A DNA stretch of 47,009 bases from a bacterium (lineage in GTDB: Bacteria > Fidelibacterota > Marinisomatia > Marinisomatales > JAHJCW01), in assembly GCA_030606865.1 (NCBI GenBank), contig JAUWFQ010000002.1, positions 1 to 47,009 on the forward strand, written 5' to 3'. Position numbers and translations under genes: made by a program. The first letter of the stretch is position 1. Each line of letters starts with the position of its first letter. The notes below the pieces were generated by a model. It searched no databases, had not been told where the DNA came from, and was given only the letters and a program-made list of their open reading frames with translations. Positions 10,581 to 35,397 of the stretch are shown piece after piece.

Positions 10581-11330
10581 TTAATCCCAACTGGCAACAC
10601 CGTCTTCAATATATCCTTGGTTATCAGCCTTGAAGGAGAATACTAAATATTTACGTTTTTTATATGTTTCTTCGATAGGGCTTTCTACACGGAAACCATC
10701 TTCCTTGAAAGTTAATTTAAACGGTTTATTTATAATAGGACAGAAGAATTGTGTGGAATCCGGTCGATACCTATCATAATACGAATCGACTGCTACGATT
10801 TCTAATGGTTCTTCGCTAATCACACCTCTAAATGCAGGATCCTCTTGCAAATTAGCGACTTCTTTTTTTTGCACAAATATTGTGTCATTCCTTGACAATT
10901 CTTCTGAATACATAATAACTGTAGAGGTAGTATCCATTGTCGTATCACGTTTGAATATATGGAAGCCAAAAGTTGTATCGAACTCTACTCCAAATCCTAG
11001 CGGTACATTAACGTCTATTATGCTGCCTAATAAATTTAATTTTTGTTCACCAACATAATTAGAATCAGCAGTAACCGAATCGGCCACAGCATTAATTATA
11101 TGCATTGCCTCATATCCATTTTGATGATATTCATTTGTTAATTGAGCATAAAATCGTTCGATATCATATATATTTTGCATACGTGAATGACTTAGTTCTT
11201 CAAAATGGTCTTCATCTGCCCAAATCGCTACTGGTACATAAATTGCGATTATTAAAAATACAATCGCTAATACGATTAGTAATTCAATCCAATCTGTTTT
11301 GTGTTGAACTTTTTTATCCATGTCTTTCAA
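10581..11330 (-). CDS. Membrane-anchored protein with a pilin-like N-terminal helix and no canonical prepilin cleavage site
   Basis: The N-terminus is MKDMDKKVQHKTDWIELLIVLAIVFLIIAIYVPVAIW. The IELLIVLAIV segment resembles the class III signal helix, including a Glu at the +5-equivalent position. The G/F cleavage motif is absent. Confidence 0.4.
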   Translation of the reverse strand: MKDMDKKVQHKTDWIELLIVLAIVFLIIAIYVPVAIWADEDHFEELSHSRMQNIYDIERFYAQLTNEYHQNGYEAMHIINAVADSVTADSNYVGEQKLNLLGSIIDVNVPLGFGVEFDTTFGFHIFKRDTTMDTTSTVIMYSEELSRNDTIFVQKKEVANLQEDPAFRGVISEEPLEIVAVDSYYDRYRPDSTQFFCPIINKPFKLTFKEDGFRVESPIEETYKKRKYLVFSFKADNQGYIEDGVASWD

Positions 11331-17100: not shown

Positions 17101-17684
17101 TAGATATACAGTGAATTCTTATTTATGAATTCCCAAACAGGTTGTGTCACCATATATCGTATAGTTTTATTTTCCTTCCATCTTTTACGAATCTGAGTAG
17201 CTGATAATTCAAATCGTGGAATATTTGCGAATTGAATTTTACTTAAAATCCAACTTGGAACAGAACTTGGTTTAAATCCGGGACGAATTGCTACAATAAC
17301 TTGACATTCTTCCAATATTTTTAATGGTTCATGCCATTTATGAAAAGTTTTAAGAATATCACTACCAATTAAAAAATACAATTCATCTCGTTTAAGTTTT
17401 TGTTCCTTTTTAATATGTCTAATTGTATCAATAGAGTAGGAAATCCCCCCTCTCTTAATCTCAGCATCTGATATTTCAAAATGGGGATTTCCCTCAACAG
17501 CAATTTCCAACATTTTCAATCTTTTATCAATCGAAGAAGTATTATTGTCAGATTTATGTGGATTTTTAAGAGCTAGAACAAAAATAAGTTTATCAAATTT
17601 CTCTTCTTCGCAAATCGTTTGAGCAATTAATAAATGTCCTATATGAGGAGGATCAAATGTACCGCCAAATATACATTTTTTCAT
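17100..17684 (-). CDS. nadD: Nicotinate-nucleotide adenylyltransferase
   Basis: Contains IFGGTFDPPHIGHLLIAQ. Size is 194 aa. Confidence 0.9.
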   Translation of the reverse strand: MKKCIFGGTFDPPHIGHLLIAQTICEEEKFDKLIFVLALKNPHKSDNNTSSIDKRLKMLEIAVEGNPHFEISDAEIKRGGISYSIDTIRHIKKEQKLKRDELYFLIGSDILKTFHKWHEPLKILEECQVIVAIRPGFKPSSVPSWILSKIQFANIPRFELSATQIRKRWKENKTIRYMVTQPVWEFINKNSLYI

Positions 17685-18466
17685 TTGTTTCCGTCCGATT
17701 CTGCTGATTTAATATATTCAAGAGATTTCGCTTTTAAAGCAGATGATGAAATTTTGCCCTCATTAGATTTGTAATAATTTTCTGCTTCTTCTACTTTTTT
17801 CATTAACGAATATGACCGAATTATTCCAACATGTGCTTCTTCTGCAAGATCAGTGTCGTAGTATTGTCCTAATAAATCTTCGAAGGCTACTATAGCAGAA
17901 TCATAAGCATGTAGTTTTATGTACAATAATGCTGTTTCTAATATTTTTTCGGCCAATTTATTACGAAGCTTCTTAATTGTTTTATTTGCTTTATCACGAT
18001 ATTCTGAATCAGGATACTCATCAATGAATTCCTGGAGTTTTTGTAATGCCTTATGTGTATTACTTTGATCATGATAATAATTTGGAGATTCGGCAACATA
18101 TGCCTCACAAATCCGCCATCTACATTTTTCAACATATGGACTATATTTCATTTTACGAGTTAATCGTTCGTATTCATTAATTGCTATAATATATTCCTTG
18201 TTCTTAAAATATGATTCTGCCAAATAAAATTGTGCATCATCGCCCCACTCGGTGTGTGAACCACTTAATACAATGATTTGGAATTCCTGTTGCGCATTAT
18301 AATACTTCTTATTCTCAAGAAATTCTTGTCCGCGTTTATATCGCTCTTCAAGCGGTAATTTCTCAACCGGGTTTTTTCCAGCGCAATTAACGATTATTCC
18401 TAAACTAATTACGATTAATATAAAATTAATTATTCGTATTTTGGTCATTCTCTTTACAAATTCCAT
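17681..18466 (-). CDS. bamD: Outer-membrane protein assembly factor BamD (YfiO-like TPR lipoprotein)
   Basis: Signal peptide with lipobox (LGIIVNCAG). TPR-like helices with YYNAQQEFQ...AQFYLAESYFKNKEY...YPDSEYRDKA, typical of BamD. An alternative ATG lies at 18448. Confidence 0.8.
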   Translation of the reverse strand: MEFVKRMTKIRIINFILIVISLGIIVNCAGKNPVEKLPLEERYKRGQEFLENKKYYNAQQEFQIIVLSGSHTEWGDDAQFYLAESYFKNKEYIIAINEYERLTRKMKYSPYVEKCRWRICEAYVAESPNYYHDQSNTHKALQKLQEFIDEYPDSEYRDKANKTIKKLRNKLAEKILETALLYIKLHAYDSAIVAFEDLLGQYYDTDLAEEAHVGIIRSYSLMKKVEEAENYYKSNEGKISSSALKAKSLEYIKSAESDGNK

Positions 18467-19347
18467 TGAACCGATATTCCTTTGATTACATAATTTGATT
18501 CTGATCCTATAGATACGTCTAACTTATAAGATAGTTCTTTGTTTTTATTGGCATTCCATAATGCGTCTAATGCGCTAAATATATGGTTAAATAGTAATGC
18601 GCTAGCGGCAAACTTAGCATTTTTATAAAGAATATTGCTATCATTACGTAAATTTAAATAATGCTGTTTATTGGGGGTCATTACTATTAATTCATCTTCT
18701 CCATTCTTGATCTTCTTTCGTACTATTTCCCAATTTGATATTGCATCATCCCAACCGGCTACAAATTGATCATATTTACCGATCCCTTCATAAAAATCCC
18801 AATCTCTTAATTCAACATATTCAATATTAGGATTTTCCAATAATATTTCGGAGGATTCATATTTTCCATTTATGATAATAGTAATGTGGTGACTTCCATC
18901 AATCCGTACATCATTAACATTGGGGAATCCATTTGATTTTATATCGCTTAGCAAGATTGCGCTACCATTTACCCAACTATTCATATTCCAATGCTCATCA
19001 GCCCAATTTTCATATTCTTTAGTAATATCATCTGCTTTATTTGTCCAAGAGATGTATCCTACTATACCCGCAACTTCAACACTGGCAAATAAAGCTGTTT
19101 TCCACCATGGGGAACGATTTAAATATTGTCCAAATCCGGGTATGACTAATGAAGCCATCATCGGTTTTAGCGGAGATGGCTTACTATTAATATCTAATGA
19201 ATCCGAGAATATTGAATTGTTAACAAGATTTGTTAAATCTATTTTTGTCGCAAAACGATTATCTAGATTTTTTAATAAATCCTCTCCACATACAATAGTA
19301 GAAATTATTATGAATATTGCAATTATTTTCCGCAAATTAAAATCCAA
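18454..19347 (-). CDS. DUF5683-like membrane protein with an extra C-terminal domain
   Basis: Contains SLVIPGFGQYLNRSPWWKTALFASVEVAGIVGYISW, matching the PG(L/F)GQ.YN...WK motif I associate with DUF5683. TTG start. It overlaps both neighbours. Confidence 0.5.
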   Translation of the reverse strand: MDFNLRKIIAIFIIISTIVCGEDLLKNLDNRFATKIDLTNLVNNSIFSDSLDINSKPSPLKPMMASLVIPGFGQYLNRSPWWKTALFASVEVAGIVGYISWTNKADDITKEYENWADEHWNMNSWVNGSAILLSDIKSNGFPNVNDVRIDGSHHITIIINGKYESSEILLENPNIEYVELRDWDFYEGIGKYDQFVAGWDDAISNWEIVRKKIKNGEDELIVMTPNKQHYLNLRNDSNILYKNAKFAASALLFNHIFSALDALWNANKNKELSYKLDVSIGSESNYVIKGISVQWNL

Positions 19348-22264
19348 ATAATAAAGTTAGATAATATCGATTCTCATCACCGTAGTTTATTTCGTCACCG
19401 TTGCTGAATTTAGTAAAAGTTGTTAAGCCATGGTGAACTTCAAAACCTAATGCTGTTGGATAATTATAAAACGAAAATCCATTGAATCGCAATTGAAGAC
19501 CTACAGACTGTTTCATATTAAATTCATCAGTCCAGGTATCACCAAATTGATATTCAATGCCAATTGTGGAATTTTGCCATATCATCCAACCTAACGGTAT
19601 GTGCTCTTGCCTAAACATCGGAATCCGCAAGGTAACTTCCGAAAAAACAGAATTTGTTCCTTCAAAGCTATAATATGGGTAGCCTTGAATACCATCCATA
19701 CCGCCTCCAAAATAGTTGAAAAATGACTCAACCGAAGAATTAGATAACCAACCACTTTTCGCAGTAAAATTCAAAGTCCATCTTTTTGATGGTAAAATAG
19801 TAGTGTGAAAAGAACCCATTGCATCAATTTTTAAATAATTATTCGGAGCAAATTCTTCAACTAGTGTTCCGGAATTTGATAAATTTAGTCCCTCAATAAA
19901 ATCATTCATTTCATAAGAGATATTTACTTTGAATTTATAGCCCTTCGAAGGATTAATATTTCGATCAACGGTTACTTTTATATTATCCCAACCGAATTTA
20001 ACACCTGTTAATAAACCGCGATAATAATCATAAGCATATCCAACCTCAGAACTTACATTACTAATACTTTCTTTAATGTATGCTCGATATCTTTGCCATT
20101 GCGCATAAATATCAATTGCATCATTACCAAAAAAGGGTAATTGCAGTCCAGCTCGCATTAAAACAAAGCGAAATTTTAATCTGTCATCAATATCGTAAAC
20201 CGAATATTTAGATTGTTCAACAGTATTCCGTGTAGCATACATAAACTCAGTATAAACAGTTGGATATAATTTTCGATAAGCTAAATTAAAAGAAAAATCT
20301 ATATCTTTATCAAAATTAACGGTTACTCCCCCACTCAAAGACAACTTTTCCAATATTTCACTCGAATAAAAATAGAATCCCGGTTTAATGGTACCATAAT
20401 CAATCATTAAGCGTGGCATCATAAACATTTTTGCAAAATTATCATGGTATTTTTCAGCAATACTTTCGTCCGGATTGTTTATAGGTGGTTTGTATTCTGA
20501 ATTACCAAGATTAGAATAAGCCGTTGAATTAACTACTTTCGGAGTATCTATTATTGCAATCTTATATCCACCTTCTTGATACAATGAAAATAATATTTTA
20601 CCATCCTCGCTTACATTGGGCATAAATGCACCACCTTTTACATTGGTATAAGTTTTTACACCTAAAGTATCGTATTGTGAAATATTATAAATTCCGTCTA
20701 TATCTGTAGAAAAAAGTAATCTTCCGTCATTTGTAATACAAACATCTCTTTGGTCATTATCAACTGTAGAAATAATATCAGTAACATTATAGTTATCTAA
20801 TGATAGTGTGGCAATATTTCTGAAGTGATGAACTGTATAATCAAATAGTAAGCTTTTTTCATTTTCATTAAAAACTAAATTATGTAGTATTCTTGAGTCA
20901 TTGAAAACTTTAATCCTTTCCGTTTTTTCCGATTCCAATGAATAAATAAAAATGCTCTGCTTTCCGCTGTCCATAGCGATGTATGCAATTGAATTTAAAT
21001 ATTCGATAAAAACCGGTGACACTGCCCGAGCCAATTTTGTCAACCTTATTTCCTTATCTTCTTTAATATTATAAACATACAGATCGTAATAGCGATACCC
21101 TTTCCAGCCCCTCAAAGTTGGTTTCTTACTGTAATATAAAATGCTGTCTCCGGCTCCCCACGTTGGCGCTGAATGTACACCCGAAGTAATTTTTTTATCT
21201 TCTTTGGAAACAAAATCGTAAATATAAAGATCTGTCTGACTAAAATAATCATTTATTTTGTTGGAAATGTAGGCGTATCGACTTCCATCATTTGACCATT
21301 TTGGATATAAATTCGTCGTACCTTTTTCTTGTAATATTTTTATATAATTATCATCTTCAATGATTGATTTTGTAGAGTTTCGATATTTTTCAATTAATTC
21401 ATTCGAATATTGCTCAAATAATTCTTTTCCGCCAATTCCCGTTGTATTTTTAATAACTTTATCTATGGAATATTGAAATGGATTCGATAGTTCTTTCATT
21501 AATGATCGTAACGTTTCTTCTCCGAATTTTTCAGCAATATAATTAACAAATGCATAGCCGGAATTATATACCGATTCATTTCCAATTCCACATTTTCCAA
21601 AGGTCTTGATCTCCTCAAAAGATATCAAATTATCATTCAATGCTTGATCTCTTAGAATCATATCACGATGAGAATCCCAATGGTCCCAATCGGCATTAGG
21701 ATACATATGTTGTGCGGTACCTTCCGCTAACCAAGGCGGAACCACAGCCGCCGGTATTGGATAACTAACCACTGTATTGGGATAACCATACAATACATTT
21801 TTATGCGTCTCGTTTTCATAGCCAATCCATTGGAAAAAAGCTCCGGGAATTGATGTGCCGGCTTTTATAGCTTTTTGGATAGAAATTATATGAGTAAACT
21901 CATGAGTTAAAACATTTTCCAACCATTTATGGCTGCCACGCAAAACGATGTCCAAAGGTGTAGCCCAAATTACAATCTTATTATCATAATAATAGGCAAC
22001 GCCATTGGCAACATCCTCCGTGTCTATAAAAATTATATGTGTCTTTTCCTTTGGCTCATATTGATATAGTTCCGTAATAAGTGGATAAACATATTCTAGA
22101 ATTCCAGCTGCTTCACGAGCTAATATTTCCGTATCAGAATAAAAATGTATTTTAAAGTGCTCGGTTTCTATTGTTTGCCACTTAATCTCAGGGTGATTAT
22201 ATTGATCTTGAGAACTTAAATTAATCGGTAAAATAAATAATAACAATATAAAGTAATACTTCAA
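19337..22264 (-). CDS. Tri-domain outer-membrane protein: MA-clan metallopeptidase, PD40/TolB-like beta-propeller and Omp85-family beta-barrel
   Basis: 975 aa. Signal peptide. HEFTH at residues 121-125 (nt 21890-21904) with downstream WLAEGTAQH. PD40-like repeats (YPKWSNDGSRYAYIS, SAPTWGAGDSILYYS, PNVSEDGKILFSLY). The C-terminus has FGGGMDGIQGYPYYSFEGTNSVFSEVTLRIPMF...VGLQLRF...YYLTLLFGF, which ends in Phe. TTG start in a TTGA overlap with the upstream stop. Confidence 0.7.
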   Translation of the reverse strand: MKYYFILLLFILPINLSSQDQYNHPEIKWQTIETEHFKIHFYSDTEILAREAAGILEYVYPLITELYQYEPKEKTHIIFIDTEDVANGVAYYYDNKIVIWATPLDIVLRGSHKWLENVLTHEFTHIISIQKAIKAGTSIPGAFFQWIGYENETHKNVLYGYPNTVVSYPIPAAVVPPWLAEGTAQHMYPNADWDHWDSHRDMILRDQALNDNLISFEEIKTFGKCGIGNESVYNSGYAFVNYIAEKFGEETLRSLMKELSNPFQYSIDKVIKNTTGIGGKELFEQYSNELIEKYRNSTKSIIEDDNYIKILQEKGTTNLYPKWSNDGSRYAYISNKINDYFSQTDLYIYDFVSKEDKKITSGVHSAPTWGAGDSILYYSKKPTLRGWKGYRYYDLYVYNIKEDKEIRLTKLARAVSPVFIEYLNSIAYIAMDSGKQSIFIYSLESEKTERIKVFNDSRILHNLVFNENEKSLLFDYTVHHFRNIATLSLDNYNVTDIISTVDNDQRDVCITNDGRLLFSTDIDGIYNISQYDTLGVKTYTNVKGGAFMPNVSEDGKILFSLYQEGGYKIAIIDTPKVVNSTAYSNLGNSEYKPPINNPDESIAEKYHDNFAKMFMMPRLMIDYGTIKPGFYFYSSEILEKLSLSGGVTVNFDKDIDFSFNLAYRKLYPTVYTEFMYATRNTVEQSKYSVYDIDDRLKFRFVLMRAGLQLPFFGNDAIDIYAQWQRYRAYIKESISNVSSEVGYAYDYYRGLLTGVKFGWDNIKVTVDRNINPSKGYKFKVNISYEMNDFIEGLNLSNSGTLVEEFAPNNYLKIDAMGSFHTTILPSKRWTLNFTAKSGWLSNSSVESFFNYFGGGMDGIQGYPYYSFEGTNSVFSEVTLRIPMFRQEHIPLGWMIWQNSTIGIEYQFGDTWTDEFNMKQSVGLQLRFNGFSFYNYPTALGFEVHHGLTTFTKFSNGDEINYGDENRYYLTLLFGF

Positions 22265-25044
22265 TGAATCACGCCTACTTTTAATATTGTTGATTCTTTA
22301 CGATTATGATTCGTTGCTGTGATCTTAATTAGATAAACACCGGATTCAATATTACTCACATCCCAAACTACTTCAAATATTTCGTTTTGTTCGTTTATTT
22401 CGTTGTGAATCTCATCAACAAAATACCCTGCTGCATCATATATTTTAAAATTAATCTTTTCAGCTGAATAATTGAATACTCTAATTTTTGCATTTCCATC
22501 TCTCACCGGATTTGGATAAACATACGTACGCTTTTTATCAATTAGTCCATTACCACTTATCACTTCTTTGACATAATCAATTTCAATTATATTAGAATTA
22601 ATTTCATCAGAATAATACATTGACCATTCATTCCCACGATTATTTTTAGCTTCATCAAAAGACCAAATTGTTGATTCGGTAACTATAATATTTCGATTAT
22701 TATATTCACTAAGCATACGTAATCTACTATTTTTTGGATTAGCTAATTTGTATTGCAATTCTCCAATATTATTAAGGATTATTATCTCCCCCTCGCTATT
22801 CTGAAAAACTATTTCCGGCTTTTCGTCTCCAATAGTGTTTTTAGCAAGAATTGGTGGGATCGCTGCTATATCAACCGGGAATCCCGTTGAGTAAGTATAA
22901 TTTTGATTGAAAGCGTATAGCTTTCCGTAGTTATCTACAGCTAATACATCAATCCGTCCGTCCAAATCCAAATCTATTGCTGATATATATTGAAACTCAA
23001 TTTCATTGAAAGCAAGCGGTTGATCACCAATAATTATACCACTATCACGTGCAATGTTGACTGAAATACTTGACTTCAAATTACCATTTTTGATAAAAAT
23101 ATATGATGGACCATAACCGGTAATAACTTGATTACCTTTAAACTGTCCGGTTAAAAATGGAATTAATTCCCAATCATCATATAATATAGTTTCATGGTCT
23201 ACAACCAAATTATTTTCGTATTTGAACCAAACCATCTTTAGTGAGTCACCCAAATCAGACAATACAACCAAGTTCTTTTTATAACCGGTATTAGTTAATA
23301 CAAATAAATTTCTATCCGAAGGTAATTCGTAAAATTCCATCTTATCAATATTATCAGTAGCCGACCACCATAGTTTCTTACCATTACCGATAATTTCTCT
23401 ATTCCCATTTCCTGTAATATCAGTATGATAAAGTATATGCAAGGAAGTATCAGGAAAACCCGAAAGTGTTAAATCATTTGAGATCGTAATCTGCATTTTA
23501 TCTGATGCATATCCAATATTTCCAATATTTAAATTTGATATTGCTCCAGCGTTGGAATTCGTATTCGGGTGAGTCATTGAATTAAACTCAATTGGATTAC
23601 CTTTGATCTGTGAATTGACTTCATCATATTCCGGATTGCCTTGATACCACATATCGAACGGTTCACCTATTGATGGATTTCTGAACAGCGCCGTGCTGAT
23701 GTATCCAATATCTTGGGGACCGCCTGCCTCCTCTAAATCAATTCCCTTGTATTTCGGATCATTATTAATTGAATTTAATTGAATATTGTCGGAAATTATT
23801 GATTCATCAATATGCCAAATTAACAATCCAGATCCCGGTAAGCCGATATCGTAATTGGGTACTGAAATAATGACACCATTCTCATCTCTAATAACTCCAA
23901 CCGAGTCAAAAATAATTTCAATAATATTGGGGATAGTATCCATTTCCTCATAAATAACTCGCCTGACTGAATCAATATCAACATTTGACCTGAACCAATT
24001 GGTTCTATTTTCTATTAAAAAGTACTCATCGTCATCTATATCTACTTTTAGTGTTTTTCTTATTGGTCTTGCTTCAATTTCTACAATATTATCCGGAGTT
24101 ATTTTATCCGGTTCCTCCCACTCAAAGAATACTCGATTCCAAGCCATAGGCGGTGCTGGAATTAATCCCTGCCCGTTATTAGATCCATGGTCCATCAAAC
24201 CAAATACACCTATGCCACTTTCACCTGTATCTGTATTCCACAACGGCGGTAAACCGATGGCTTGTCCAACTAACATAGCAAATGTTCCGGTTAATCCATA
24301 TTGATAATTGCAAACATTTTGAATACCACTTTTCTCAAATTGTTCTACCATTTCAGGAAATAAAACATGATTTTGTGTTTCAGGTAGTATAATGCCACTT
24401 TTAATATATGTATCACCCACATTAATTCCAGCATTCCCAATATGCTTACGTATCATTGAATAATCAATATAGGTCGATGGTATATCTTCAGGAGTAGTAT
24501 CAATTTCAAATGCAAAATCCTGACTAACCCCTGCATGGAATACTACAACTACATCATAATTACTGAATATTATATTATCAGATGAATCTGCAGTTGTTAC
24601 AGCGTCTGAAAATAATTCTACGATTCGTTTTTCGTGTTTAAAATCTCTTTCTTCTTGACCTAAATCACTTAAAAAGGGATGGTAATAGGACATAGAATCC
24701 GGCATAGTGTAAACCAATTCAGGATCAGTTGGGAAAATATCTGATCTTTCAAGATCGATTCCAAAATGTCCATTAGAAACTGAACGGAAATAACTATCAA
24801 GTGCTTTTAATTGCGATTCAAAGTACGATTTATCATGCGGAGGAGGATCAACAGTATAATCCCCACAATAATCTGCATCAATAGTTAATAGAAATTTACC
24901 GTTTCCGGTTGTTCCCTCATGATTGTCAACTTTAAAATCTACACGTAAAGCTAATACCTTTAAATTGTGTTCGATTGCCCCCCATAATAAAGAAACGGTC
25001 GTTAACAAGACAATCATAAACATCTTGCTAAAACGACCGTACAT
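22261..25044 (-). CDS. T9SS-sorted M6 (immune inhibitor A)-like protein with a degenerate active site and FG-GAP-like repeats
   Basis: 927 aa. Signal peptide. VVVFHAGVSQDF, then GTFAMLVGQAIGLPPLWNTD...GLMDHGSNNG where M6 enzymes carry HExxHxxGLPD.Y. FG-GAP-like DLDLDGRIDVLAVDNYGKLYAF. C-terminal sorting domain. Confidence 0.7.
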   Translation of the reverse strand: MYGRFSKMFMIVLLTTVSLLWGAIEHNLKVLALRVDFKVDNHEGTTGNGKFLLTIDADYCGDYTVDPPPHDKSYFESQLKALDSYFRSVSNGHFGIDLERSDIFPTDPELVYTMPDSMSYYHPFLSDLGQEERDFKHEKRIVELFSDAVTTADSSDNIIFSNYDVVVVFHAGVSQDFAFEIDTTPEDIPSTYIDYSMIRKHIGNAGINVGDTYIKSGIILPETQNHVLFPEMVEQFEKSGIQNVCNYQYGLTGTFAMLVGQAIGLPPLWNTDTGESGIGVFGLMDHGSNNGQGLIPAPPMAWNRVFFEWEEPDKITPDNIVEIEARPIRKTLKVDIDDDEYFLIENRTNWFRSNVDIDSVRRVIYEEMDTIPNIIEIIFDSVGVIRDENGVIISVPNYDIGLPGSGLLIWHIDESIISDNIQLNSINNDPKYKGIDLEEAGGPQDIGYISTALFRNPSIGEPFDMWYQGNPEYDEVNSQIKGNPIEFNSMTHPNTNSNAGAISNLNIGNIGYASDKMQITISNDLTLSGFPDTSLHILYHTDITGNGNREIIGNGKKLWWSATDNIDKMEFYELPSDRNLFVLTNTGYKKNLVVLSDLGDSLKMVWFKYENNLVVDHETILYDDWELIPFLTGQFKGNQVITGYGPSYIFIKNGNLKSSISVNIARDSGIIIGDQPLAFNEIEFQYISAIDLDLDGRIDVLAVDNYGKLYAFNQNYTYSTGFPVDIAAIPPILAKNTIGDEKPEIVFQNSEGEIIILNNIGELQYKLANPKNSRLRMLSEYNNRNIIVTESTIWSFDEAKNNRGNEWSMYYSDEINSNIIEIDYVKEVISGNGLIDKKRTYVYPNPVRDGNAKIRVFNYSAEKINFKIYDAAGYFVDEIHNEINEQNEIFEVVWDVSNIESGVYLIKITATNHNRKESTILKVGVIH
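22264..22533 (-). other. Type IX secretion C-terminal sorting domain (CTD), final ~90 aa of the 927-aa protein
   Basis: The final 90 aa are KRTYVYPNPVRDGNAKIRVFNYSAEKINFKIYDAAGYFVDEI...WDVSNIESGVYLIKITATNHNRKESTILKVGVIH. They carry the YPNP...G.Y....K... pattern of type A CTDs. Confidence 0.8.
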
Positions 25045-25075
25045 TTTAATAATTAATTATATCTATATTTATATT

Positions 25076-26407
25076 TTAAAAAGCCCAGTTAAGGGAAAAA
25101 CGCATTGTATTTTCTAGCGGATGACCCGGTTCACCAAAAGTATAACCAAAATCAAATCCATATCCACCATAACGTAAACCAACACCCATTGTTGGGTTAA
25201 ATAATTTACCGTTATAATCGTAAATATATCCTAATCGAATAGCAAATACATTTGCATACCAATATTCTAAGCCAACATTATGAACAATTTGCCTAAGCTC
25301 ATTTTTAATCGAACGAGCATCTCCGCTTCCAACTTCCTTTTGTCCATATTCGTTATATTCCCCCCCATCAGATTCAACCATTTCTCCTTCATCAATATCA
25401 ATTTTACCATTACCGTTATTATCCACCCAATTCCAGCCACCGATTATGCCATCGGCAAGATTACCGGGAGAAGCCATATCAATATCACCACCTAAGAACC
25501 AATCATCAAACCAGGAAGTGAATAATGCCAAATATAGTGGATCGGTATGGGCGGTTTCCTGTTTTCCGTCATTATTATAAAATGAGTTTTTGGTGGTTTC
25601 ATTCCCATCTTCGTCGTATCCGCCGATAATGCCATCACCATCCCAATCCATATCAGGATATGAAGCAACTAATAGTTTATTAATATCCCAAACAACTGAA
25701 AGTTTATTATATTCAGAATTAAGCACCTGATAATTAAAGCCTAATGTAAAATTAGTTGGTTGCGGATCACCTTGGGCACGATCTATGAACCAAACTTTTG
25801 GTCCTATATTAGTAATTGTAGTTCCCAAAGTTAGATTTTGAAAAAGGAATTCCTTCTTCATATAACCCAAATCAAAACCAAAATCAGTTGAACTTCCTTT
25901 ACCTTCCTCCGCACCGGCACCCTGATCAGTCAAATGTTGATACGATACTTTTGCATTTATACCAAAAGCAGATTTTTCATTGATTTTTGTACTATACGAT
26001 AAATTTAAGGCAAACATATAGCTTGAAAATTTTCCCAACTCCTCTCCGATTTCACTAGTACGAGTTTGCTCGCCAAGATTTAAATAAATTAAATGTCCAC
26101 CGACAGTTCCGATATTAGGGATTGATTTGCGCATAGCAAAAAAATCATAAGCCATATCATCAGCGAGGTTTGGAAGCCAATTAACATGCATTAATGCCAG
26201 TTCGGTTCCTTCTAAGAATCCCAAACCTGCCGGATTCCAATAACTTGCATAGGCATCGTCGGCTACAGCGGTATGGGCTTCACCCATTCCTCCTGCACGA
26301 GCACTCGGTGCAATTAATAAAAATATTGAACCGGCTTCACTTTGAGCAAAACCAATTGAGGTAATTACGAAAATTGTTGTTAAACTAACGACAATAAAAC
26401 GCTTCAT
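25076..26407 (-). CDS. porV: PorV/PorQ-family T9SS outer-membrane beta-barrel with a long acidic insertion
   Basis: Signal peptide followed by GSIFLLIAPSARAGGMGEAHTAVADDAYASYWNPAGLGFL, the family-defining N-terminal block. C-terminal FSLNWAF. The insertion at about residues 250-365 is rich in D/G/N. Confidence 0.8.
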   Translation of the reverse strand: MKRFIVVSLTTIFVITSIGFAQSEAGSIFLLIAPSARAGGMGEAHTAVADDAYASYWNPAGLGFLEGTELALMHVNWLPNLADDMAYDFFAMRKSIPNIGTVGGHLIYLNLGEQTRTSEIGEELGKFSSYMFALNLSYSTKINEKSAFGINAKVSYQHLTDQGAGAEEGKGSSTDFGFDLGYMKKEFLFQNLTLGTTITNIGPKVWFIDRAQGDPQPTNFTLGFNYQVLNSEYNKLSVVWDINKLLVASYPDMDWDGDGIIGGYDEDGNETTKNSFYNNDGKQETAHTDPLYLALFTSWFDDWFLGGDIDMASPGNLADGIIGGWNWVDNNGNGKIDIDEGEMVESDGGEYNEYGQKEVGSGDARSIKNELRQIVHNVGLEYWYANVFAIRLGYIYDYNGKLFNPTMGVGLRYGGYGFDFGYTFGEPGHPLENTMRFSLNWAF

Positions 26408-26413
26408 ACGGCA

Positions 26414-26419
26414 CTCCTT
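26414..26419 (-). promoter_or_regulatory. Shine-Dalgarno sequence for porV
   Basis: The minus strand reads AAGGAG-TGCCGT-ATG, giving a 6-nt spacer to the start codon. Confidence 0.6.
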
Positions 26420-26503
26420 AAAAAATGATATTTAGTTTCTATTAAACTTATTGTTAAAAAATAGTAGCGTTTTAAGTATAGATATGTCCTATTTAATTAA
26501 ACA

Positions 26504-26532
26504 AATATATTAATATTAATAATGCTGTGCAA
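26504..26532 (-). promoter_or_regulatory. Candidate sigma70-type promoter for porV
   Basis: The minus strand reads TTGCAC-17 nt-TATATT in the 134-nt gap upstream of porV. AT-rich DNA gives many chance -10-like hexamers, so this is weak. Confidence 0.3.
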
Positions 26533-26541
26533 GTACGATTA

Positions 26542-31635: not shown

Positions 31636-32916
31636 TTACCAGCTTGAATCTTTATATAGTCTTTCAGTTACCCAATTGTAACAAGCTGTTTTCACTGTAG
31701 CGTAACCTATAGCTTTTTGACTTGCATCCAACATGAACCAATCACTTTTTGTAAATAATACCTCATTATCTCTTAACCAGTTTTTAGAACCGGAAACATT
31801 TCGGTATCCTTTACTTTCTGCTTGACTATAATATTTATATGCTAAACGCGCAACGATGCGGTCATCGCATGATACTTCAAGAGTACGGCAGGTATGGAAA
31901 GCTTTGTAATATACATCGCCTTTGGCGCCTAATGCTTCACCGGAAGATTTTGATCCTCTTATTGCTTTATCTGCCCAATAGATAGCTTTGCCGAAATTCT
32001 CTAGTTCAGAATTAACTTCACAAATTCTAATAGCAGTTTGGTAATCGCGTGAATCGAGTTCGTAAACTGATTCCAAAGATGTAGATGCATTTGCAAAATC
32101 TTCATTTAAGATATATGCGTCACCGAGTTTACTAAAAATAACTTTATTCTTAGGCTCTTTTCTACTCACAGCTTTTAATACATCAATAGCTTCATTAACG
32201 CGGTCATTTTGCAGATATGCATCCGCCAATTGAATACCATTTGAACCAGTTGGATTATTATTATATTTGTCTAAATAAAGTTCAAGTGGATCTTTCCCTG
32301 TTCTTTCAAAGGCAGTAGTTAAATCAGCAATAGCCGCTTCATTGGTTGGATCAATTTTTATTAATTTTTGTAAAACTCGGATTTGCTCTTCATACCTGCC
32401 TTCTTTGCGATAAAGTGACGCTAATTCCGTCATTACTCTAATATTATTAGGATCAAGTTCATCAAGTATTCGCTCGTATTCCACGATCTCCTGATCAGTC
32501 TTTCCCTGTCGCTTGTAGGCATAGGCTAAACGTACTCTGAGATCAATGTTGTTAGGAATTTTCTCTACCCCTTTAAGTAAAACATATTCTGAGCTATCAT
32601 ATTTACCCATTTGCTCATAAGCAATACCATAGTATTGATAAATTTCTTCCGGTGGTGCAAAGGTTGCATCCCATTCATCACAACCCAAATCAACAACTTC
32701 ATTGTAAACACGTACGGTTGATTCCCAATCGCGAGCGTGGTAATATTCTGCTGCACTACTCATTAATCGCGGACAGCGAACATTTCTAACACTATCAATT
32801 CTAGCTTTTTCAGCTAAATCTTCTGCGGATGGACCACTTGGTGGAACACACATACTAATAATTAAAGCTGATAATGCTACTAAAAATAATTTAAATGACA
32901 CTCCTTTTTTGTCCAT
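31636..32916 (-). CDS. TPR-repeat lipoprotein
   Basis: The likely start is [23 protein letters not shown] at 32916, a TGATG overlap with the upstream stop. It has multiple TPR-like units ([43 protein letters not shown]). Confidence 0.75.
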
Positions 32917-34187
32917 CACTGAGCTCTCCTTTTTACAAACCAAATATCTCCTACTGTGATTCCAATACTAAATTTTTGAATATTTTCATCACCAATTTCA
33001 AATAATCCTTCTCTTTTGCCAATAGAATATGCAAAATCAATCTGATTTTTTGTAACGCCAAAGTTAAAACTAAGTCCCATTGAAACACCATACTCTTTTA
33101 TATTTTTTTCAGAATTCAATAGTTTAATATTATTAGAGTATGCACCAGCTTTAAAGTTCATCCTATCAAGGAAATTTTTAGGTATTCTTGGTGTGAATTT
33201 TATAATTCCGATATTAAAATGATCTATTGATTTTATTTGATCATTTAAGGTTGAATATTTTGTCCCTATTTTTTCTTTATCCTCCCATCTAGAATATTCA
33301 CCAAGTAAGCTTATTCCTTTTTGTATAGCATAGTCAAATCCAAATTGATATTCATGCGGTGCAGATACGTTCTCTGTGTTTAAAACCAATGGATCTGTTG
33401 AATTTGATAGCTTCGGAAAATCAGAATTATCTTGTTCGCCTGAATCGTTGGAATCTTCAAATGGTTTATAATAATAAGATTTAACAGAAATTGCGTTCAA
33501 AGGCAATCCCCATCCAAAATATAAATTAAGCGGAACATTCCACTTAGATAAGATATCGCTATTTATATAAAACTTTGCCAAACTGCCCGAGTAAACATGT
33601 CTTTGCTGAGAATAATAATCTAAATCAGCAATTGAAAAAATCGTTTGTTGACGGGCTGACCCATATAAAAAATCAAAGGTAACACCGGCGTTCAAATTAT
33701 TTGAAACATTGCTGGCAAATGAAATATTAAATGCTGTAATTCCACCAAAACTGCTATACGAATGATTAATTGTTAAAGTATCGCCAAAAGCGATATAATC
33801 ATTCTCATCGCTTCCATCTAATATTAAATACTGATTAAAATACGGATGAATTCCAAGACCAAAAGCATATTTATTTTTAATCGGAACGATAAACTGAGCA
33901 TATCCAAGGTTTGAATTACCATTAATAATATCATTTAAGACAATCTTTTGCTCAACCTGATAAGTCCCGGTGAAATAAGTAAAATTTAAATTTTTCCAAG
34001 TTGATGGATTTTGCAGTGAAACATCATTCTTAAACGTTGGTAATAACCCGATTGATGATATCCCCAATGAAGCTGCATCATATATATCTATTTTTTTTCC
34101 AATTCCGTATCCATTTAATAAACTTTGACTAAATAAAGTTGAGCACAGAAATACCGCTAAAATAATAATTTTATTAAAGTTTGACAT
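32916..34187 (-). CDS. Predicted outer-membrane beta-barrel protein of unknown function
   Basis: Signal peptide MSNFNKIIILAVFLCSTLFSQ from the ATG at 34187. A PorV/FadL-like N-terminal block (DAASLGISSIGLL...SLQNPSTW). Alternating hydrophobic strands run throughout. Confidence 0.5.
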   Translation of the reverse strand: MSNFNKIIILAVFLCSTLFSQSLLNGYGIGKKIDIYDAASLGISSIGLLPTFKNDVSLQNPSTWKNLNFTYFTGTYQVEQKIVLNDIINGNSNLGYAQFIVPIKNKYAFGLGIHPYFNQYLILDGSDENDYIAFGDTLTINHSYSSFGGITAFNISFASNVSNNLNAGVTFDFLYGSARQQTIFSIADLDYYSQQRHVYSGSLAKFYINSDILSKWNVPLNLYFGWGLPLNAISVKSYYYKPFEDSNDSGEQDNSDFPKLSNSTDPLVLNTENVSAPHEYQFGFDYAIQKGISLLGEYSRWEDKEKIGTKYSTLNDQIKSIDHFNIGIIKFTPRIPKNFLDRMNFKAGAYSNNIKLLNSEKNIKEYGVSMGLSFNFGVTKNQIDFAYSIGKREGLFEIGDENIQKFSIGITVGDIWFVKRRAQ

Positions 34188-35397
34188 ATACAATCTTAAG
34201 ATATGGGTTATTATCTGAATTATTTTGATCAAATATTAAATTTGCAGACTGAAACGGATCACTGGAAGAACTACCATATAATTTGAGTCCAAAATTATTA
34301 TAACTACTGGTATTCACACCCTGCAAAAATGATCTGATTTCCATTTTCATTTGATTGGCTTCAAAAATACCGGTCATCAGGACATCCGGTTCTATTGAAT
34401 ATTCGTCTTCATCTATTTCCCAATAATTTGAAATATTAACAGAATCTTCAAGTATTGCAGCTTTGATTTCAAAATTATCTAATGATATTTCCGGAATTGA
34501 ATTGAAAATCAATTCTGCTGATTTAATTACCATAATAACTGTTGAATCTATCGGTATCTCACTTAAATCAAATTGGATTATTGATTTTAGTCCGGTTGCT
34601 CTGCCAATCGATATACTATTCATATCACTCTCTGTAACTTCGCGTGGTTCTACGATTGTCATATCTTTCAACGGAAAAAAGACACTATGCAATGTATCCT
34701 CGCTAACTCTGTAGTATACATTAATTATCGGAAAATCCGCTGTTTCGCGACTTCGAATTGATACAATATCATCAATTGGATCAATGTTCTTTAACATAAA
34801 TGTTCTATTTTGAGTGTCAGTAGTATCTGCTATAAAACTAATAACATCATCTTTATTTTCAATTGTAAAACACAATTTTGGATAAATTGATTCAGTAGAA
34901 TCAGGTACTTCCTGAGTAAAGATGCTTTGTCCAATCGAAACTGCGTTAACCACATCAGTTTCGTTAATATTTAAATAATGACTCTCCGTTTCACTAAAGA
35001 CTGAATCTCCACCTTCAGGGAAATAGTATAATTCAAATTGACTATTTGTAAGTAAGGTATCATCTGTTGCTGTGAAAGTGAAAACCAAACTATCAATGGT
35101 AACAGTTGAATCAAGTAAACTATAGTTTCGTACAATACCACTTAATGATAATGAAGAAAATTGAACGAGGGAAAATAAATTATCAAAACCATCAGCGCTA
35201 CCAAAATATATTCCATTTGTACTGCCCATTAACGGTGGTGCTAAATATGTACCACCTTCTATAGATCTTACCGTTATTGTATCAAGGTCTAAGTTTGAGT
35301 CTGATAAATTGTAAGGAATTGGATTTTCGGTACAGCTGAAAAATATTACGATAGACGTAATTATGACTATTATAGTAATAAGACGATTGTTATTCAT
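34174..35397 (-). CDS. Lipoprotein, possibly DUF4270-like
   Basis: Signal peptide with Cys (IVIFFSCT) and a beta-rich sequence. The family guess rests mainly on its position just downstream of a half-size GlgA-like gene, a pairing I recall from Bacteroidetes genomes. Confidence 0.45.
   Translation of the reverse strand: MNNNRLITIIVIITSIVIFFSCTENPIPYNLSDSNLDLDTITVRSIEGGTYLAPPLMGSTNGIYFGSADGFDNLFSLVQFSSLSLSGIVRNYSLLDSTVTIDSLVFTFTATDDTLLTNSQFELYYFPEGGDSVFSETESHYLNINETDVVNAVSIGQSIFTQEVPDSTESIYPKLCFTIENKDDVISFIADTTDTQNRTFMLKNIDPIDDIVSIRSRETADFPIINVYYRVSEDTLHSVFFPLKDMTIVEPREVTESDMNSISIGRATGLKSIIQFDLSEIPIDSTVIMVIKSAELIFNSIPEISLDNFEIKAAILEDSVNISNYWEIDEDEYSIEPDVLMTGIFEANQMKMEIRSFLQGVNTSSYNNFGLKLYGSSSSDPFQSANLIFDQNNSDNNPYLKIVYVKL

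What the first reader, a model, noticed from the sequence alone, without database searches (positions are those of the whole stretch)
17681..26407. Overlap-coupled outer-membrane module linking PorV, a T9SS cargo, a protease-bearing Omp85 barrel, a DUF5683-like protein and BamD
Five consecutive minus-strand genes are packed with almost no spacing. porV is followed after 31 nt by the CTD-tagged 927-aa gene. The next junctions are a TTGA overlap (22261-22264), an 11-nt overlap (19337-19347), a 13-nt overlap (18454-18466) and an ATGA-type overlap into nadD (17681-17684). The only sizeable upstream gap (26408-26541) holds a plausible promoter and a strong SD for porV.

Established knowledge: PorV is the T9SS shuttle that binds CTD cargo, and BamD is the essential lipoprotein partner of Omp85/BamA.

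Inference: this layout suggests one unit in which a T9SS-exported, catalytically dead M6-like binding protein works with an outer-membrane barrel that carries its own active metalloprotease and propeller. The function could be surface protein or peptide capture, or envelope quality control. I do not know of a described system with this composition.
Basis: partly seen in the sequence, partly recalled or inferred. Interest (0 to 1): 0.7.

Follow-up and report, generated by a model that had tools for sequence, protein, structure and literature searches.

The report
Conserved T9SS-linked outer-membrane gene cluster
Four of these five tightly packed genes (PorV, a secreted dead protease, an outer-membrane barrel carrying a live zinc protease, and a small unknown protein) stay together across several related bacterial phyla, usually beside the type IX secretion gene porU, so they form a real but uncharacterised outer-membrane module; BamD is only a local neighbour.

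Summary
The coordinates, overlaps and domain calls hold. The genes are PorV, a CTD-tagged M6-like protein with no HExxH, a 975-aa protein, a DUF5683-like protein, BamD and NadD. The 975-aa protein has an HExxH+E zincin domain, a six-bladed TolB-like propeller and a POTRA-less 16-strand Omp85 barrel.

The tight packing is not informative. All 41 ORFs in the window are on the minus strand, and 19 of 40 junctions overlap.

Within Marinimicrobia the five-gene order is kept in 53 of 53 loci. The unrelated flanks (TRAP transporter, nadD, Na/Ca exchanger, ftsEX) are kept equally well (40 of 40).

The useful test lies outside the phylum. In 7 of 7 loci from Ignavibacteriales, Calditrichia, KSB1, Balneolales and other Bacteroidota, porV–M6i–MA/propeller/Omp85 persists with different flanks. 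The DUF5683-like gene follows in all six contigs that continue. porU lies directly upstream in five. BamD is absent from all seven.

The real unit is therefore a four-gene, T9SS-linked module that is widespread in the FCB superphylum. Its parts are catalogued (NCBIfam NF052323; "WD40-Omp85", 2014), but I found no description of the system. Its function is inferred, not shown.

The parts
26408..26541 (-). Intergenic gap upstream of porV. It holds AAGGAG (26414-26419) 6 nt before the ATG and one TAnnTTTG match (26502-26509). It is the likely start of the transcription unit, but this is not shown.
   Evidence: Sequence read. Promoter-type motifs are not enriched over shuffles. A gap at this position recurs in Marinimicrobia loci (coordinates).
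25076..26407 (-). PorV-family outer-membrane barrel (443 aa) with a signal peptide. It carries an Asp-rich insertion of about 110 aa (aa ~250-365) that PorV from other phyla lacks.
   Evidence: NF033709 PorV_fam scores 258.6 bits (cut-off 90). The T9SS_OM_PorV equivalog scores 197 (cut-off 250) and is split in two. Pfam PorV scores 93 bits. F. johnsoniae PorV 6h3i_F matches at E 3.3e-30, and no other solved chain, including those of the F. johnsoniae BAM entries, matched at E<=1. Syntenic orthologues in L081 and L083 pass the equivalog cut-off.
22261..25044 (-). T9SS type-A CTD cargo (927 aa). It has an N-terminal M6-like domain with the HExxH motif lost, a C-terminal half whose relatives show FG-GAP or beta-propeller hits, and a Por_Secre_tail at aa 842-915.
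   Evidence: NF052323 T9SSA_dep_M6i scores 413 bits (cut-off 600). TIGR04183 scores 35.7 (cut-off 23). Pfam Por_Secre_tail scores 42.8 (cut-off 27). None of six orthologues from six lineages has HExxH. Syntenic orthologues score 812-858 bits on NF052323.
19337..22264 (-). 975-aa outer-membrane protein. It has a signal peptide, an MA-clan zincin domain (aa ~30-300; H121, E122, H125, E181), a six-bladed TolB-like propeller (aa ~305-575), a linker, and a POTRA-less 16-strand Omp85-type barrel (aa ~614-975). The L6 motif is GIQGYPYYS and the C-terminus is LLFGF.
   Evidence: The AlphaFold model has pLDDT 83.4 and pTM 0.81. For the barrel-only model, all 50 listed Foldseek hits are Omp85 barrels; F. 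johnsoniae BamA 9n2d_A gives E 1e-7 and TMq 0.59. The full-length homologue P0348 hits Pfam Omp85 at 44.1 bits (cut-off 24). Catalytic and L6 motifs are conserved across phyla.
21365..22177 (-). Sub-part of the 975-aa gene: the zinc metallopeptidase domain with HEFTH and WLAEGTAQ.
20540..21352 (-). Sub-part of the 975-aa gene: the six-bladed PD40/TolB-like beta-propeller.
   Evidence: About 24 strands lie between aa 308 and 572. TolB structures top the full-length Foldseek search. TIGR02800 matches aa 309-495.
19340..20425 (-). Sub-part of the 975-aa gene: the Omp85-type beta-barrel.
18454..19347 (-). DUF5683-like protein (297 aa). It has an N-terminal signal or anchor and the conserved motifs SLxIPGxGQ, YExIGKY, GWxD and NHxxSAxDA. 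It is the fourth member of the conserved core. Its fold is unknown.
   Evidence: Pfam DUF5683 scores 29.5 (cut-off 26.7). 10 of 12 cross-phylum orthologues match it. Alignment A4 shows the invariant residues. tblastn finds the orthologue directly downstream in L081-L084, and Pfam annotation finds it in L090 and L091.
17681..18466 (-). BamD (261 aa, TPR lipoprotein). It is a genuine BamD but only a lineage-specific neighbour, not part of the conserved core.
   Evidence: TIGR03302 scores 141 bits (cut-off 81.4). Rhodothermus BamD 3qky matches at E 2.9e-35 and F. johnsoniae BamD 9n2d_F at 1.1e-19. It is absent from all seven out-of-phylum module loci.

Best explanation
This is the Marinimicrobia copy of an outer-membrane gene cluster conserved in part of the FCB superphylum: (porU)-porV-[CTD-tagged inactive M6-like protein]-[MA zincin + TolB-like propeller + POTRA-less Omp85 barrel]-[DUF5683-like protein]. 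In Marinimicrobia porU is no longer adjacent. bamD-nadD lies downstream only because of phylum-wide synteny.

Shown:
- The four genes travel together across phyla with different flanks.
- The M6-like protein has lost its catalytic motif everywhere examined.
- The 975-aa protein keeps HExxH+E everywhere examined.
- Its C-terminus is an Omp85-type barrel.

Inferred mechanism:
- The M6-like pseudoprotease is exported by the T9SS, handed to PorV through its CTD, and held at the cell surface as a binding protein. This would resemble PorU and PorZ, which are held on PorV and PorQ.
- The 975-aa protein sits in the outer membrane. By Omp85 topology it holds a propeller-gated zinc peptidase on the periplasmic face.
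- The DUF5683-like protein is a membrane-associated partner.
- Together they act as a T9SS accessory station for cargo processing, attachment or quality control, rather than as a nutrient trap or a core BAM component.

My confidence that the four-gene unit is real is about 0.9. My confidence that it is functionally tied to the T9SS is about 0.5. The figure given below is for the statement as a whole.
For: - Gene order porV-M6i-MA/propeller/Omp85 holds in 7 of 7 non-Marinimicrobia FCB loci with unrelated flanks: L081 Ignavibacteriales, L082 Calditrichia, L083 and L091 Bacteroidota MAGs, L084 KSB1, L085 Balneolales, L090. The DUF5683-like gene follows in the six whose contigs continue (L085 ends first). 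porU (Peptidase_C25) lies directly upstream in 5 of them.
- tblastn with the window's own proteins confirms orthology for L081-L085.
- The neighbours in L081 and L083 pass NCBI's curated cut-offs for T9SS PorV (266, 253; cut-off 250) and for the 'T9SS-dependent M6-like inactivated metalloprotease' (812, 858; cut-off 600).
- No HExxH occurs in any of six M6-like orthologues. HExxH, the downstream AEG Glu and the L6 motif are kept in the 975-aa family (invariant columns).
- Omp85 barrel: the listed Foldseek hits are all BamA, TamA or Sam50, and homologue P0348 hits Pfam Omp85.
- The family is large. 1064 cluster representatives at 50% identity match at E<=1e-30.
- The enzyme domain fused N-terminally to the Omp85 barrel in PlpD is periplasmic (PMC11116518).
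Against: - No experiment or expression data were available. Co-transcription, complex formation, topology and protease activity are all untested.
- More distant homologues of the 975-aa protein have no porV, M6-like or DUF5683 neighbours. These are Chitinivibrionales, Krumholzibacteria, a 'Deltaproteobacteria' MAG, Ca. Alcyoniella and Kofleriaceae. The architecture therefore does not strictly depend on the T9SS.
- If the protease is periplasmic and the M6-like protein extracellular, they cannot touch directly. Any cooperation must pass through the barrel loops or through PorV.
- The window's own PorV and M6-like proteins fall below NCBI's equivalog cut-offs.
- No other T9SS core gene is in the window.
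Confidence: 0.55

Rival explanations
1. A BAM-like auxiliary machine for outer-membrane protein biogenesis or quality control. The Omp85 barrel (975-aa protein), a FadL-like barrel (PorV), a large surface protein (M6-like) and BamD would mirror the Bacteroidota BAM complex: BamA + FadL-like BamG + surface canopy BamH/M + BamD. The fused zincin would act like BepA and degrade stalled substrates such as the huge T9SS barrel SprA.
For: - The composition parallels the F. johnsoniae BAM structure (PMC12611786).
- The barrel's best structural match is F. johnsoniae BamA.
- BamD lies two genes downstream in all Marinimicrobia loci.
- A BamG-like gene is in the same window at 32916-34232.
- Heinz & Lithgow likened WD40-Omp85 proteins to a BamA-BamB fusion.
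Against: - BamD is not adjacent in any of the seven out-of-phylum module loci.
- The FadL-like partner is a bona fide PorV, not BamG.
- A separate BamG-like gene exists in the window, which points to a separate canonical BAM.
- The barrel has no POTRA domains.
- The similarity to BepA is not significant (E about 1, around the HExxH helix only).
Confidence: 0.2
2. A nutrient-acquisition device. The surface pseudoprotease captures proteins or peptides. The barrel passes them inward. The attached propeller-gated peptidase trims them in the periplasm for uptake.
For: - A protease next to a propeller is the oligopeptidase-type layout. Precomputed Tricorn, DPP-IV and S9 propeller hits occur on homologues.
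- The M6-like protein has lost catalysis but keeps its fold, which suits a binding role.
- A TRAP transporter lies immediately upstream in Marinimicrobia.
Against: - The TRAP genes are not linked to the module outside Marinimicrobia.
- From my own knowledge, not tested here: no Omp85 barrel is known to import substrates, and loop L6 normally occupies the lumen. The L6 motif is conserved in this family.
- In every locus examined the gene appears once and in a fixed position, which looks more like a housekeeping gene than a nutrient-uptake gene.
- The recurrent partner is porU, a secretion and attachment gene.
Confidence: 0.15
3. There is no joint function. The M6-like protein is just a common T9SS cargo encoded next to porV. 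The Omp85-protease and the DUF5683-like protein are an unrelated pair that has remained adjacent by descent.
For: - Marinimicrobia show that long stretches of unrelated genes can stay collinear. Eleven genes are collinear in 40 of 40 loci.
- Distant homologues of the 975-aa protein occur without the other genes.
Against: - The same four genes stay together, in the same order and strand, in lineages from different phyla and classes. Everything around them differs.
Confidence: 0.1

Closest known systems
WD40-Omp85 subfamily of the Omp85/TpsB superfamily (Heinz & Lithgow 2014, PMC4104836)
   Same: It has an Omp85 barrel whose N-terminal part is a TolB-like beta-propeller instead of POTRA domains. 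The subfamily was defined by sequence only.
   Different: In the passages I searched, that paper mentions neither the zinc-peptidase domain ahead of the propeller nor a T9SS gene context. The term 'peptidase' does not occur in its text. I could not confirm that its members are the same proteins, because its Table S3 was not consulted.
T9SS attachment complex PorU-PorV-PorQ-PorZ of Porphyromonas gingivalis (my own knowledge of the literature). PorV as the CTD-binding shuttle is described in PMC10994853.
   Same: PorV is present here, and porU is adjacent in other phyla. A large CTD-bearing, propeller-containing surface protein is encoded next to a FadL-like barrel, like the PorZ/PorQ and PorU/PorV pairs.
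   Different: No NCBIfam or Pfam match to PorZ was found for the M6-like protein, and the PorQ model scores only 62 bits on the PorV-like protein. The attachment complex has no Omp85 protein, no metallopeptidase and no DUF5683 protein.
Bacteroidota BAM complex BamA-BamD-BamG-BamH(-BamM-BamP) (Liu et al. 2025, PMC12611786)
   Same: It combines an Omp85 barrel, a FadL-family barrel, a large surface-exposed protein and BamD. F. johnsoniae BamA is the best structural match for the barrel.
   Different: The FadL-like protein here is PorV, not BamG. The surface protein is a T9SS cargo rather than a lipoprotein. The barrel lacks POTRA domains and carries a protease. BamD is not linked outside Marinimicrobia. 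A separate BamG-like gene lies elsewhere in the window.
PlpD / patatin-like Omp85 proteins (PMC11116518)
   Same: An enzyme domain is fused N-terminally to an Omp85 barrel and was shown to stay in the periplasm. This is the precedent for the topology proposed here.
   Different: PlpD carries a lipase and keeps one POTRA domain. Here there is a zincin plus a propeller and no POTRA. I know of no T9SS link for PlpD.
NCBIfam NF052323, 'T9SS-dependent M6-like inactivated metalloprotease'
   Same: The 927-aa protein aligns over aa 24-522, carries a type-A CTD and lacks HExxH. Its syntenic orthologues are full members of the family.
   Different: The window protein scores 413 bits against a cut-off of 600, because its C-terminal half has diverged. 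The family is an annotation model, and I found no functional study of it.
BepA, the BAM-associated M48 zinc protease with a TPR domain (my own knowledge; PDB entries named 'Beta-barrel assembly-enhancing protease')
   Same: It is a periplasmic HExxH zincin joined to a protein-interaction domain and working at an Omp85 machine.
   Different: The sequence match is not significant (E 1.1-1.4, around the HExxH helix only). It belongs to a different peptidase family and is a separate soluble protein, not fused to a barrel.

Membership tests
Omp85 superfamily (975-aa protein, C-terminal domain) | Sequence match to the Omp85 barrel profile (Pfam PF01103) | tested here: inconclusive
   The window protein has no PF01103 hit at E<=0.01. 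Its full-length homologue P0348 scores 44.1 bits (cut-off 24) over aa 649-937. Several other homologues carry precomputed PF01103 hits. A profile of the barrel against PDB sequences gives only TamA at E 1.6, over the L6 region.
Omp85 superfamily (975-aa protein, C-terminal domain) | 16-stranded barrel fold like BamA, TamA or Sam50 | tested here: met
   For the barrel-only model (pLDDT 72), all 50 listed Foldseek hits are Omp85 barrels. 9n2d_A gives E 1e-7 and TMq 0.59. DSSP gives 16 long strands plus a short hairpin that I assign to loop 8. The strand count therefore involves that interpretive step.
Omp85 superfamily (975-aa protein, C-terminal domain) | Conserved (V/I/L)RG(Y/F) motif in loop 6 between strands 11 and 12 | tested here: met
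   GIQGY lies at aa ~859-863 between strands 11 and 12. Orthologues have GMRGY, GLKGY or GLRGY. G858, G861 and Y862 are invariant. In the window's clade Arg is replaced by Gln.
Omp85 superfamily (975-aa protein) | [quoted passage not shown] | tested here: not met
   There is no POTRA hit. The model shows the propeller joined to strand 1 by a linker of about 40 residues. This matches the non-POTRA WD40-Omp85 group, so the protein is an atypical member.
MA-clan zinc metallopeptidase (975-aa protein, N-terminal domain) | HExxH plus a downstream Glu ligand, and a profile match | tested here: met
   H121, E122, H125 and E181 are invariant in 40 Marinimicrobia sequences and in 15 cross-phylum sequences. 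Pfam Peptidase_MA_2 scores 30.3, just under the cut-off of 32.4, for the window protein. Homologues P0266, P0284 and P0373 score above the cut-off. Catalytic activity was not tested.
PorV (T9SS shuttle) | Match to curated PorV models and to the solved PorV structure | tested here: met
   PorV_fam scores 258.6 (cut-off 90). The equivalog scores 197 (cut-off 250), split by an insertion of about 110 aa. F. johnsoniae PorV 6h3i_F matches at E 3.3e-30. Syntenic orthologues pass the equivalog cut-off. CTD binding was not tested.
BamG (Bacteroidota BAM subunit), considered for the PorV-like gene | Closer to BamG than to PorV | tested here: not met
   The PorV-like protein gives no BamG hit in NCBIfam or PDB. 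A different window gene (32916-34232) matches NF053685 BamG at 120 bits. It also matches chain 9hiv_F ('Outer membrane protein') at E 9e-6.
NF052323 T9SS-dependent M6-like inactivated metalloprotease | Score above the curated cut-off (600 bits) | tested here: not met
   The score is 413 bits, and only aa 24-522 align. The syntenic orthologues in L081 and L083 score 812 and 858.
NF052323 T9SS-dependent M6-like inactivated metalloprotease | M6-like fold with the HExxH motif lost, plus a type-A T9SS sorting domain | tested here: met
   No HExxH is present. The motif position reads AMLVGQAIGLPPLW where orthologues have xxxxGxxLGLPDLF. Por_Secre_tail scores 42.8 (cut-off 27) and TIGR04183 scores 35.7 (cut-off 23).
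BamD | Match to curated BamD models and to solved BamD structures | tested here: met
   TIGR03302 scores 141 (cut-off 81.4). Pfam YfiO scores 82.9 (cut-off 25). 3qky matches at E 2.9e-35 and 9n2d_F at E 1.1e-19. Whether it is the genome's only BamD, and whether a canonical POTRA-bearing BamA exists elsewhere, cannot be tested from this window.
DUF5683 | Pfam PF18935 match | tested here: met
   The score is 29.5 (cut-off 26.7), but only profile positions 2-62 of 151 align. 10 of 12 cross-phylum orthologues match.
   The test is met for porV, the M6-like gene and the Omp85-protease gene in 7 of 7 out-of-phylum loci with different flanks. The DUF5683-like gene follows in the six loci whose contigs continue. 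The test is not met for bamD, which is absent from all seven. Within the phylum the test has no power, because eleven genes are collinear in 40 of 40 loci.
Functional operon or module | Co-transcription and physical interaction | not testable with these tools
   No metatranscriptome or multimer-prediction tool was available.

The most novel reading that the evidence does not exclude
The four proteins, together with PorU, form a previously unrecognised outer-membrane machine built on the same plan as the Bacteroidota BAM complex. It would have an Omp85 barrel flanked by a FadL-type barrel (PorV), which holds a T9SS-delivered pseudoprotease as a surface canopy. A propeller-gated zinc protease would sit on the periplasmic side in place of POTRA domains. 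It would be a dedicated station in non-Bacteroidia FCB phyla that couples T9SS export to membrane attachment or to proteolytic quality control of cargo or of giant barrels such as SprA.
Probability: 0.15. Interest if true: 0.85.

Novelty: new variant of a known kind. Interest (0 to 1): 0.58.

Why it matters
The T9SS and the BAM complex have been dissected almost only in Bacteroidia and Flavobacteriia. The module found here (porV, a dead M6-like cargo, a protease-bearing POTRA-less Omp85 and a DUF5683 protein, usually preceded by porU) occurs in Marinimicrobia, Ignavibacteriales, Calditrichia, KSB1, Balneolales and other Bacteroidota MAGs. It therefore points to three conserved, unstudied proteins that probably work with the secretion and attachment machinery in much of the FCB superphylum, including very abundant ocean bacteria.

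It would also be the first functional context for the 'WD40-Omp85' branch of the Omp85 superfamily, and an example of an Omp85 barrel used to anchor a protease. The prediction can be tested directly in any cultivable member of these lineages that carries the cluster.

Tried and rejected
- **PorV-like gene as BamG.** Both are FadL-like. Rejected because it matches PorV models and the PorV structure. A different window gene is the BamG-like one.
- **Tight packing as evidence of coupling.** Rejected because overlaps are the norm in the window.
- **Promoter evidence.** Sigma-70 and TAnnTTTG scans are at chance level. No terminator-like site lies between the genes.
- **Within-phylum synteny as a test.** All 80 GTDB loci are Marinimicrobia-type contigs that also keep the unrelated flanks, so the test has no power.
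- **Full-length Foldseek.** It was swamped by propeller hits, so I modelled the barrel alone.
- **PDB sequence searches.** The 975-aa protein, its N-terminal domain profile, the M6-like protein and the DUF5683 profile gave nothing significant.
- **First two homology searches.** The 975-aa and 927-aa queries listed only Marinimicrobia relatives. I reached other phyla through the representative search and by re-querying with P0348.
- **Literature searches.** Queries on PorV2, DUF5683, T9SS with Omp85, T9SS with M6, and Marinimicrobia with T9SS found no description of the module.
- **Rfam and tRNA scans.** They found nothing in the region.

Full report
**1. Observation**

The junction sequences read as described:
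- a 31-nt gap after porV;
- a TTGA overlap at 22261-22264;
- an 11-nt overlap at 19337-19347;
- a 13-nt overlap at 18454-18466, which disappears if bamD starts at its second ATG;
- an ATGA overlap at 17681-17684.

AAGGAG lies 6 nt before the porV ATG.

The packing says little. All 41 ORFs of at least 120 aa in the window are on the minus strand, 19 of 40 junctions overlap, and 32 of 40 are 35 nt or less. Promoter-like motifs are at chance level: sigma-70-type sites number 70 against 73.3 expected, and TAnnTTTG occurs 77 times against 70.9 expected. The rest of the window is housekeeping: obg, dprA, icd, dnaJ, hrcA, ftsEX, a Na/Ca exchanger, a TRAP transporter, glyA, and mreB, PBP2 and rodA. 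Close relatives are Marinimicrobia, also called Neomarinimicrobiota or Fidelibacterota.

**2. The proteins**

- **PorV-like protein (443 aa).**
  - It matches NF033709 PorV_fam at 258.6 bits and Pfam PorV at 93 bits.
  - It matches the solved F. johnsoniae PorV at E 3.3e-30.
  - It falls under the PorV equivalog cut-off (197 against 250) because an Asp-rich insertion of about 110 aa splits the match.
- **927-aa protein.**
  - It matches NF052323, 'T9SS-dependent M6-like inactivated metalloprotease', at 413 bits (cut-off 600). Only the N-terminal 500 residues align.
  - It ends in a type-A T9SS sorting domain.
  - Neither it nor five orthologues from other lineages contains HExxH. The motif position reads AMLVGQAIGLPPLW.
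- **975-aa protein.**
  - It modelled well, with pLDDT 83.4 and pTM 0.81.
  - It has a signal peptide and a helical zincin domain with H121, E122, H125 and E181. These residues are invariant in 40 relatives and in 15 cross-phylum sequences.
  - A six-bladed TolB-like propeller follows, then a linker and a C-terminal barrel.
- **297-aa protein.** It matches DUF5683 at 29.5 bits (cut-off 26.7). It has cross-phylum orthologues with invariant motifs and no solved relative.
- **BamD.** It is unambiguous: TIGR03302 scores 141 bits and 3qky matches at E 2.9e-35.

**3. Is the barrel an Omp85?**

The window protein itself has no Pfam Omp85 hit. Three other lines of evidence agree.
- I modelled the barrel alone (pLDDT 72). 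All 50 listed Foldseek hits in the PDB are Omp85 barrels: F. johnsoniae BamA at E 1e-7 and TMq 0.59, TamA, E. coli BamA and Sam50.
- A distant homologue that aligns over its full length, P0348, hits Pfam Omp85 at 44.1 bits. Several others carry precomputed PF01103 hits.
- Loop 6 between strands 11 and 12 carries G-(I/M/L)-(Q/R/K)-G-Y-P-(Y/F)-Y. This is the Omp85 (V/I)RG(Y/F) motif. The protein ends in LLFGF.

There is no POTRA domain. This architecture was named 'WD40-Omp85' by Heinz & Lithgow in 2014. They worked from sequence alone, and the term 'peptidase' does not occur in their text.

**4. Is it a module?**

Within Marinimicrobia the answer looks strongly positive, but the test has no power. 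In 53 of 53 loci that hold all five genes the order is kept. So is the order of eleven genes, including the TRAP transporter, nadD, the Na/Ca exchanger and ftsEX, in 40 of 40 loci.

I therefore went outside the phylum. The representative search shows a large family, with 1064 representatives at E<=1e-30. Re-querying with P0348 gave members in Ignavibacteriales, KSB1, Calditrichia, Bacteroidota including Balneolales, Krumholzibacteria, Chitinivibrionales, Fibrobacteria and some Myxococcota.

The gene contexts are as follows.
- **Module present.** In seven loci the order is porV, a CTD-tagged protein of about 1000-1100 aa, sometimes a small gene of about 220 aa, then the MA/propeller/Omp85 gene. 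The loci are L081 Ignavibacteriales, L082 Calditrichia, L083 and L091 Bacteroidota MAGs, L084 KSB1, L085 Balneolales and L090. A DUF5683-like gene follows in the six loci that continue; contig L085 ends first. The flanks differ in every locus.
- **porU.** It lies directly upstream in five of the seven.
- **Orthology.** tblastn with the window's own proteins confirms orthology and finds no bamD or nadD in L081-L085. In L081 and L083 the neighbours pass NCBI's cut-offs for PorV and for NF052323.
- **Module absent.** More distant homologues (23-28% identity) have none of these neighbours. They come from Chitinivibrionales, Krumholzibacteria, a 'Deltaproteobacteria' MAG, Ca. Alcyoniella and Kofleriaceae.

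The conserved unit is therefore four genes plus porU. BamD is a lineage-specific neighbour.

**5. How it probably works**

Shown:
- the linkage across phyla;
- the consistent loss of catalytic residues in the M6-like protein;
- the consistent retention of catalytic residues in the 975-aa protein;
- the Omp85 fold.

Established knowledge:
- PorV binds the CTD of T9SS cargo and shuttles it from the translocon.
- PorU and PorZ stay on the surface bound to PorV and PorQ.
- The N-terminal domains of Omp85 proteins are periplasmic. This was recently shown even for the enzyme domain of PlpD (PMC11116518).

Inference:
- The M6-like pseudoprotease is exported by the T9SS and retained at the surface as a binding protein.
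- The 975-aa protein anchors a propeller-gated zinc peptidase at the periplasmic face of the outer membrane.
- The DUF5683-like protein is a membrane-associated partner. It has an N-terminal signal or anchor and two moderately hydrophobic helices.
- Together they form a T9SS accessory station for processing, attachment or quality control.

I rate the existence of the unit at about 0.9 and its T9SS-related function at about 0.5.

**6. Rival explanations**

- **BAM-like auxiliary machine (0.2).** The composition (Omp85 barrel, FadL-type barrel, large surface protein, BamD) echoes the F. johnsoniae BAM complex of Liu et al. 2025. The window also encodes a BamG-like protein at 32916-34232. Against this: BamD is unlinked outside the phylum, the FadL-like partner is a true PorV, and the resemblance to BepA is not significant.
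- **Surface capture and periplasmic trimming of peptides for nutrition (0.15).** It fits the oligopeptidase-like layout. It does not fit the recurring porU partner or what is known of Omp85 barrels.
- **Mere inherited adjacency (0.1).** This is unlikely, because every flank differs while the four genes persist.

**7. Novelty**

The parts are catalogued: PorV, NF052323, WD40-Omp85, DUF5683 and BamD. I found no paper describing the cluster or any function for the Omp85-protease. I class it as a new variant of a known kind, namely a T9SS-associated outer-membrane module built around an atypical Omp85. Interest is moderate to high. Expression, topology, protein interactions, protease activity and the presence of a canonical BamA elsewhere in this genome all remain untested.

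Noticed in passing
window 32916-34232 (-), with 34174-35397 (-) just upstream: The 438-aa ORF matches NCBIfam NF053685 'BamG family beta-barrel-assembly machinery protein' at 120 bits (cut-off 250) over the full profile. It also matches PDB chain 9hiv_F ('Outer membrane protein') at E 9e-6. Another chain of the same entry, 9hiv_D, matched the window's BamD. The overlapping upstream 407-aa ORF has only a sub-threshold DNRLRE-domain hit (27.8 bits; cut-off 34) and could be a BamH counterpart, but this is unproven. This suggests Marinimicrobia have a Bacteroidota-type BAM that is separate from the module studied here.
   Followed up: partly
window ~25313-25660 (-), PorV aa ~250-365: PorV carries an Asp/Gly-rich insertion of about 110 aa with repeats such as DWDGDGIIGGYDEDGNE and DNNGNGKIDIDEGE. 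These look like calcium-binding loops. PorV hits are full length (about 445-460 aa) across Marinimicrobia, whereas PorV in the other phyla is 352-389 aa and aligns in two pieces around the insertion.
   Followed up: partly
L081 8338-8997 and L090 8325-8990: In two non-Marinimicrobia loci a small gene of about 220 aa sits between the M6-like gene and the Omp85-protease gene. It has a FlgD_ig-type Ig domain in L081. The window has no such gene.
   Followed up: no
whole window: All 41 ORFs of at least 120 aa are on the minus strand. GC skew is negative in every 2-kb bin. About 96% of the window is coding at roughly 32% GC. This is a streamlined genome with extreme strand bias over 47 kb.
   Followed up: partly
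L049 (contig labelled Winogradskyella sp.) and P0094 (labelled Flavobacteriaceae bacterium TMED184): These records carry a 48%-identical copy of the 975-aa protein. L049 also has the full Marinimicrobia-type gene order. They are probably misbinned Marinimicrobia contigs, not Flavobacteriia.
   Followed up: no
window 44654-45922 (-) and 43851-44639 (-): One ORF is a GWxTD-domain protein (TIGR04514, 122 bits). Next to it is a protein with a sub-threshold Cas4-like nuclease hit (37.5 bits; cut-off 65). No CRISPR context was seen.
   Followed up: no
window 8678-10549 (-), 10581-11330 (-), 45904-47001 (-): Three sizeable ORFs (623, 249 and 365 aa) have no significant Pfam or NCBIfam match.
   Followed up: no
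window 22204-22210 (-); the equivalent N-termini in L081, L083, L084: The predicted signal-peptide ends of the 975-aa family are followed by Gln (LSS-QDQ, SA-QEY, AA-QDD, QA-QLV). This recalls the Bacteroidetes 'Q-rule' for signal peptidase I substrates. The abstract of PMC5837995, seen, says that rule does not hold across the whole FCB group.
   Followed up: no
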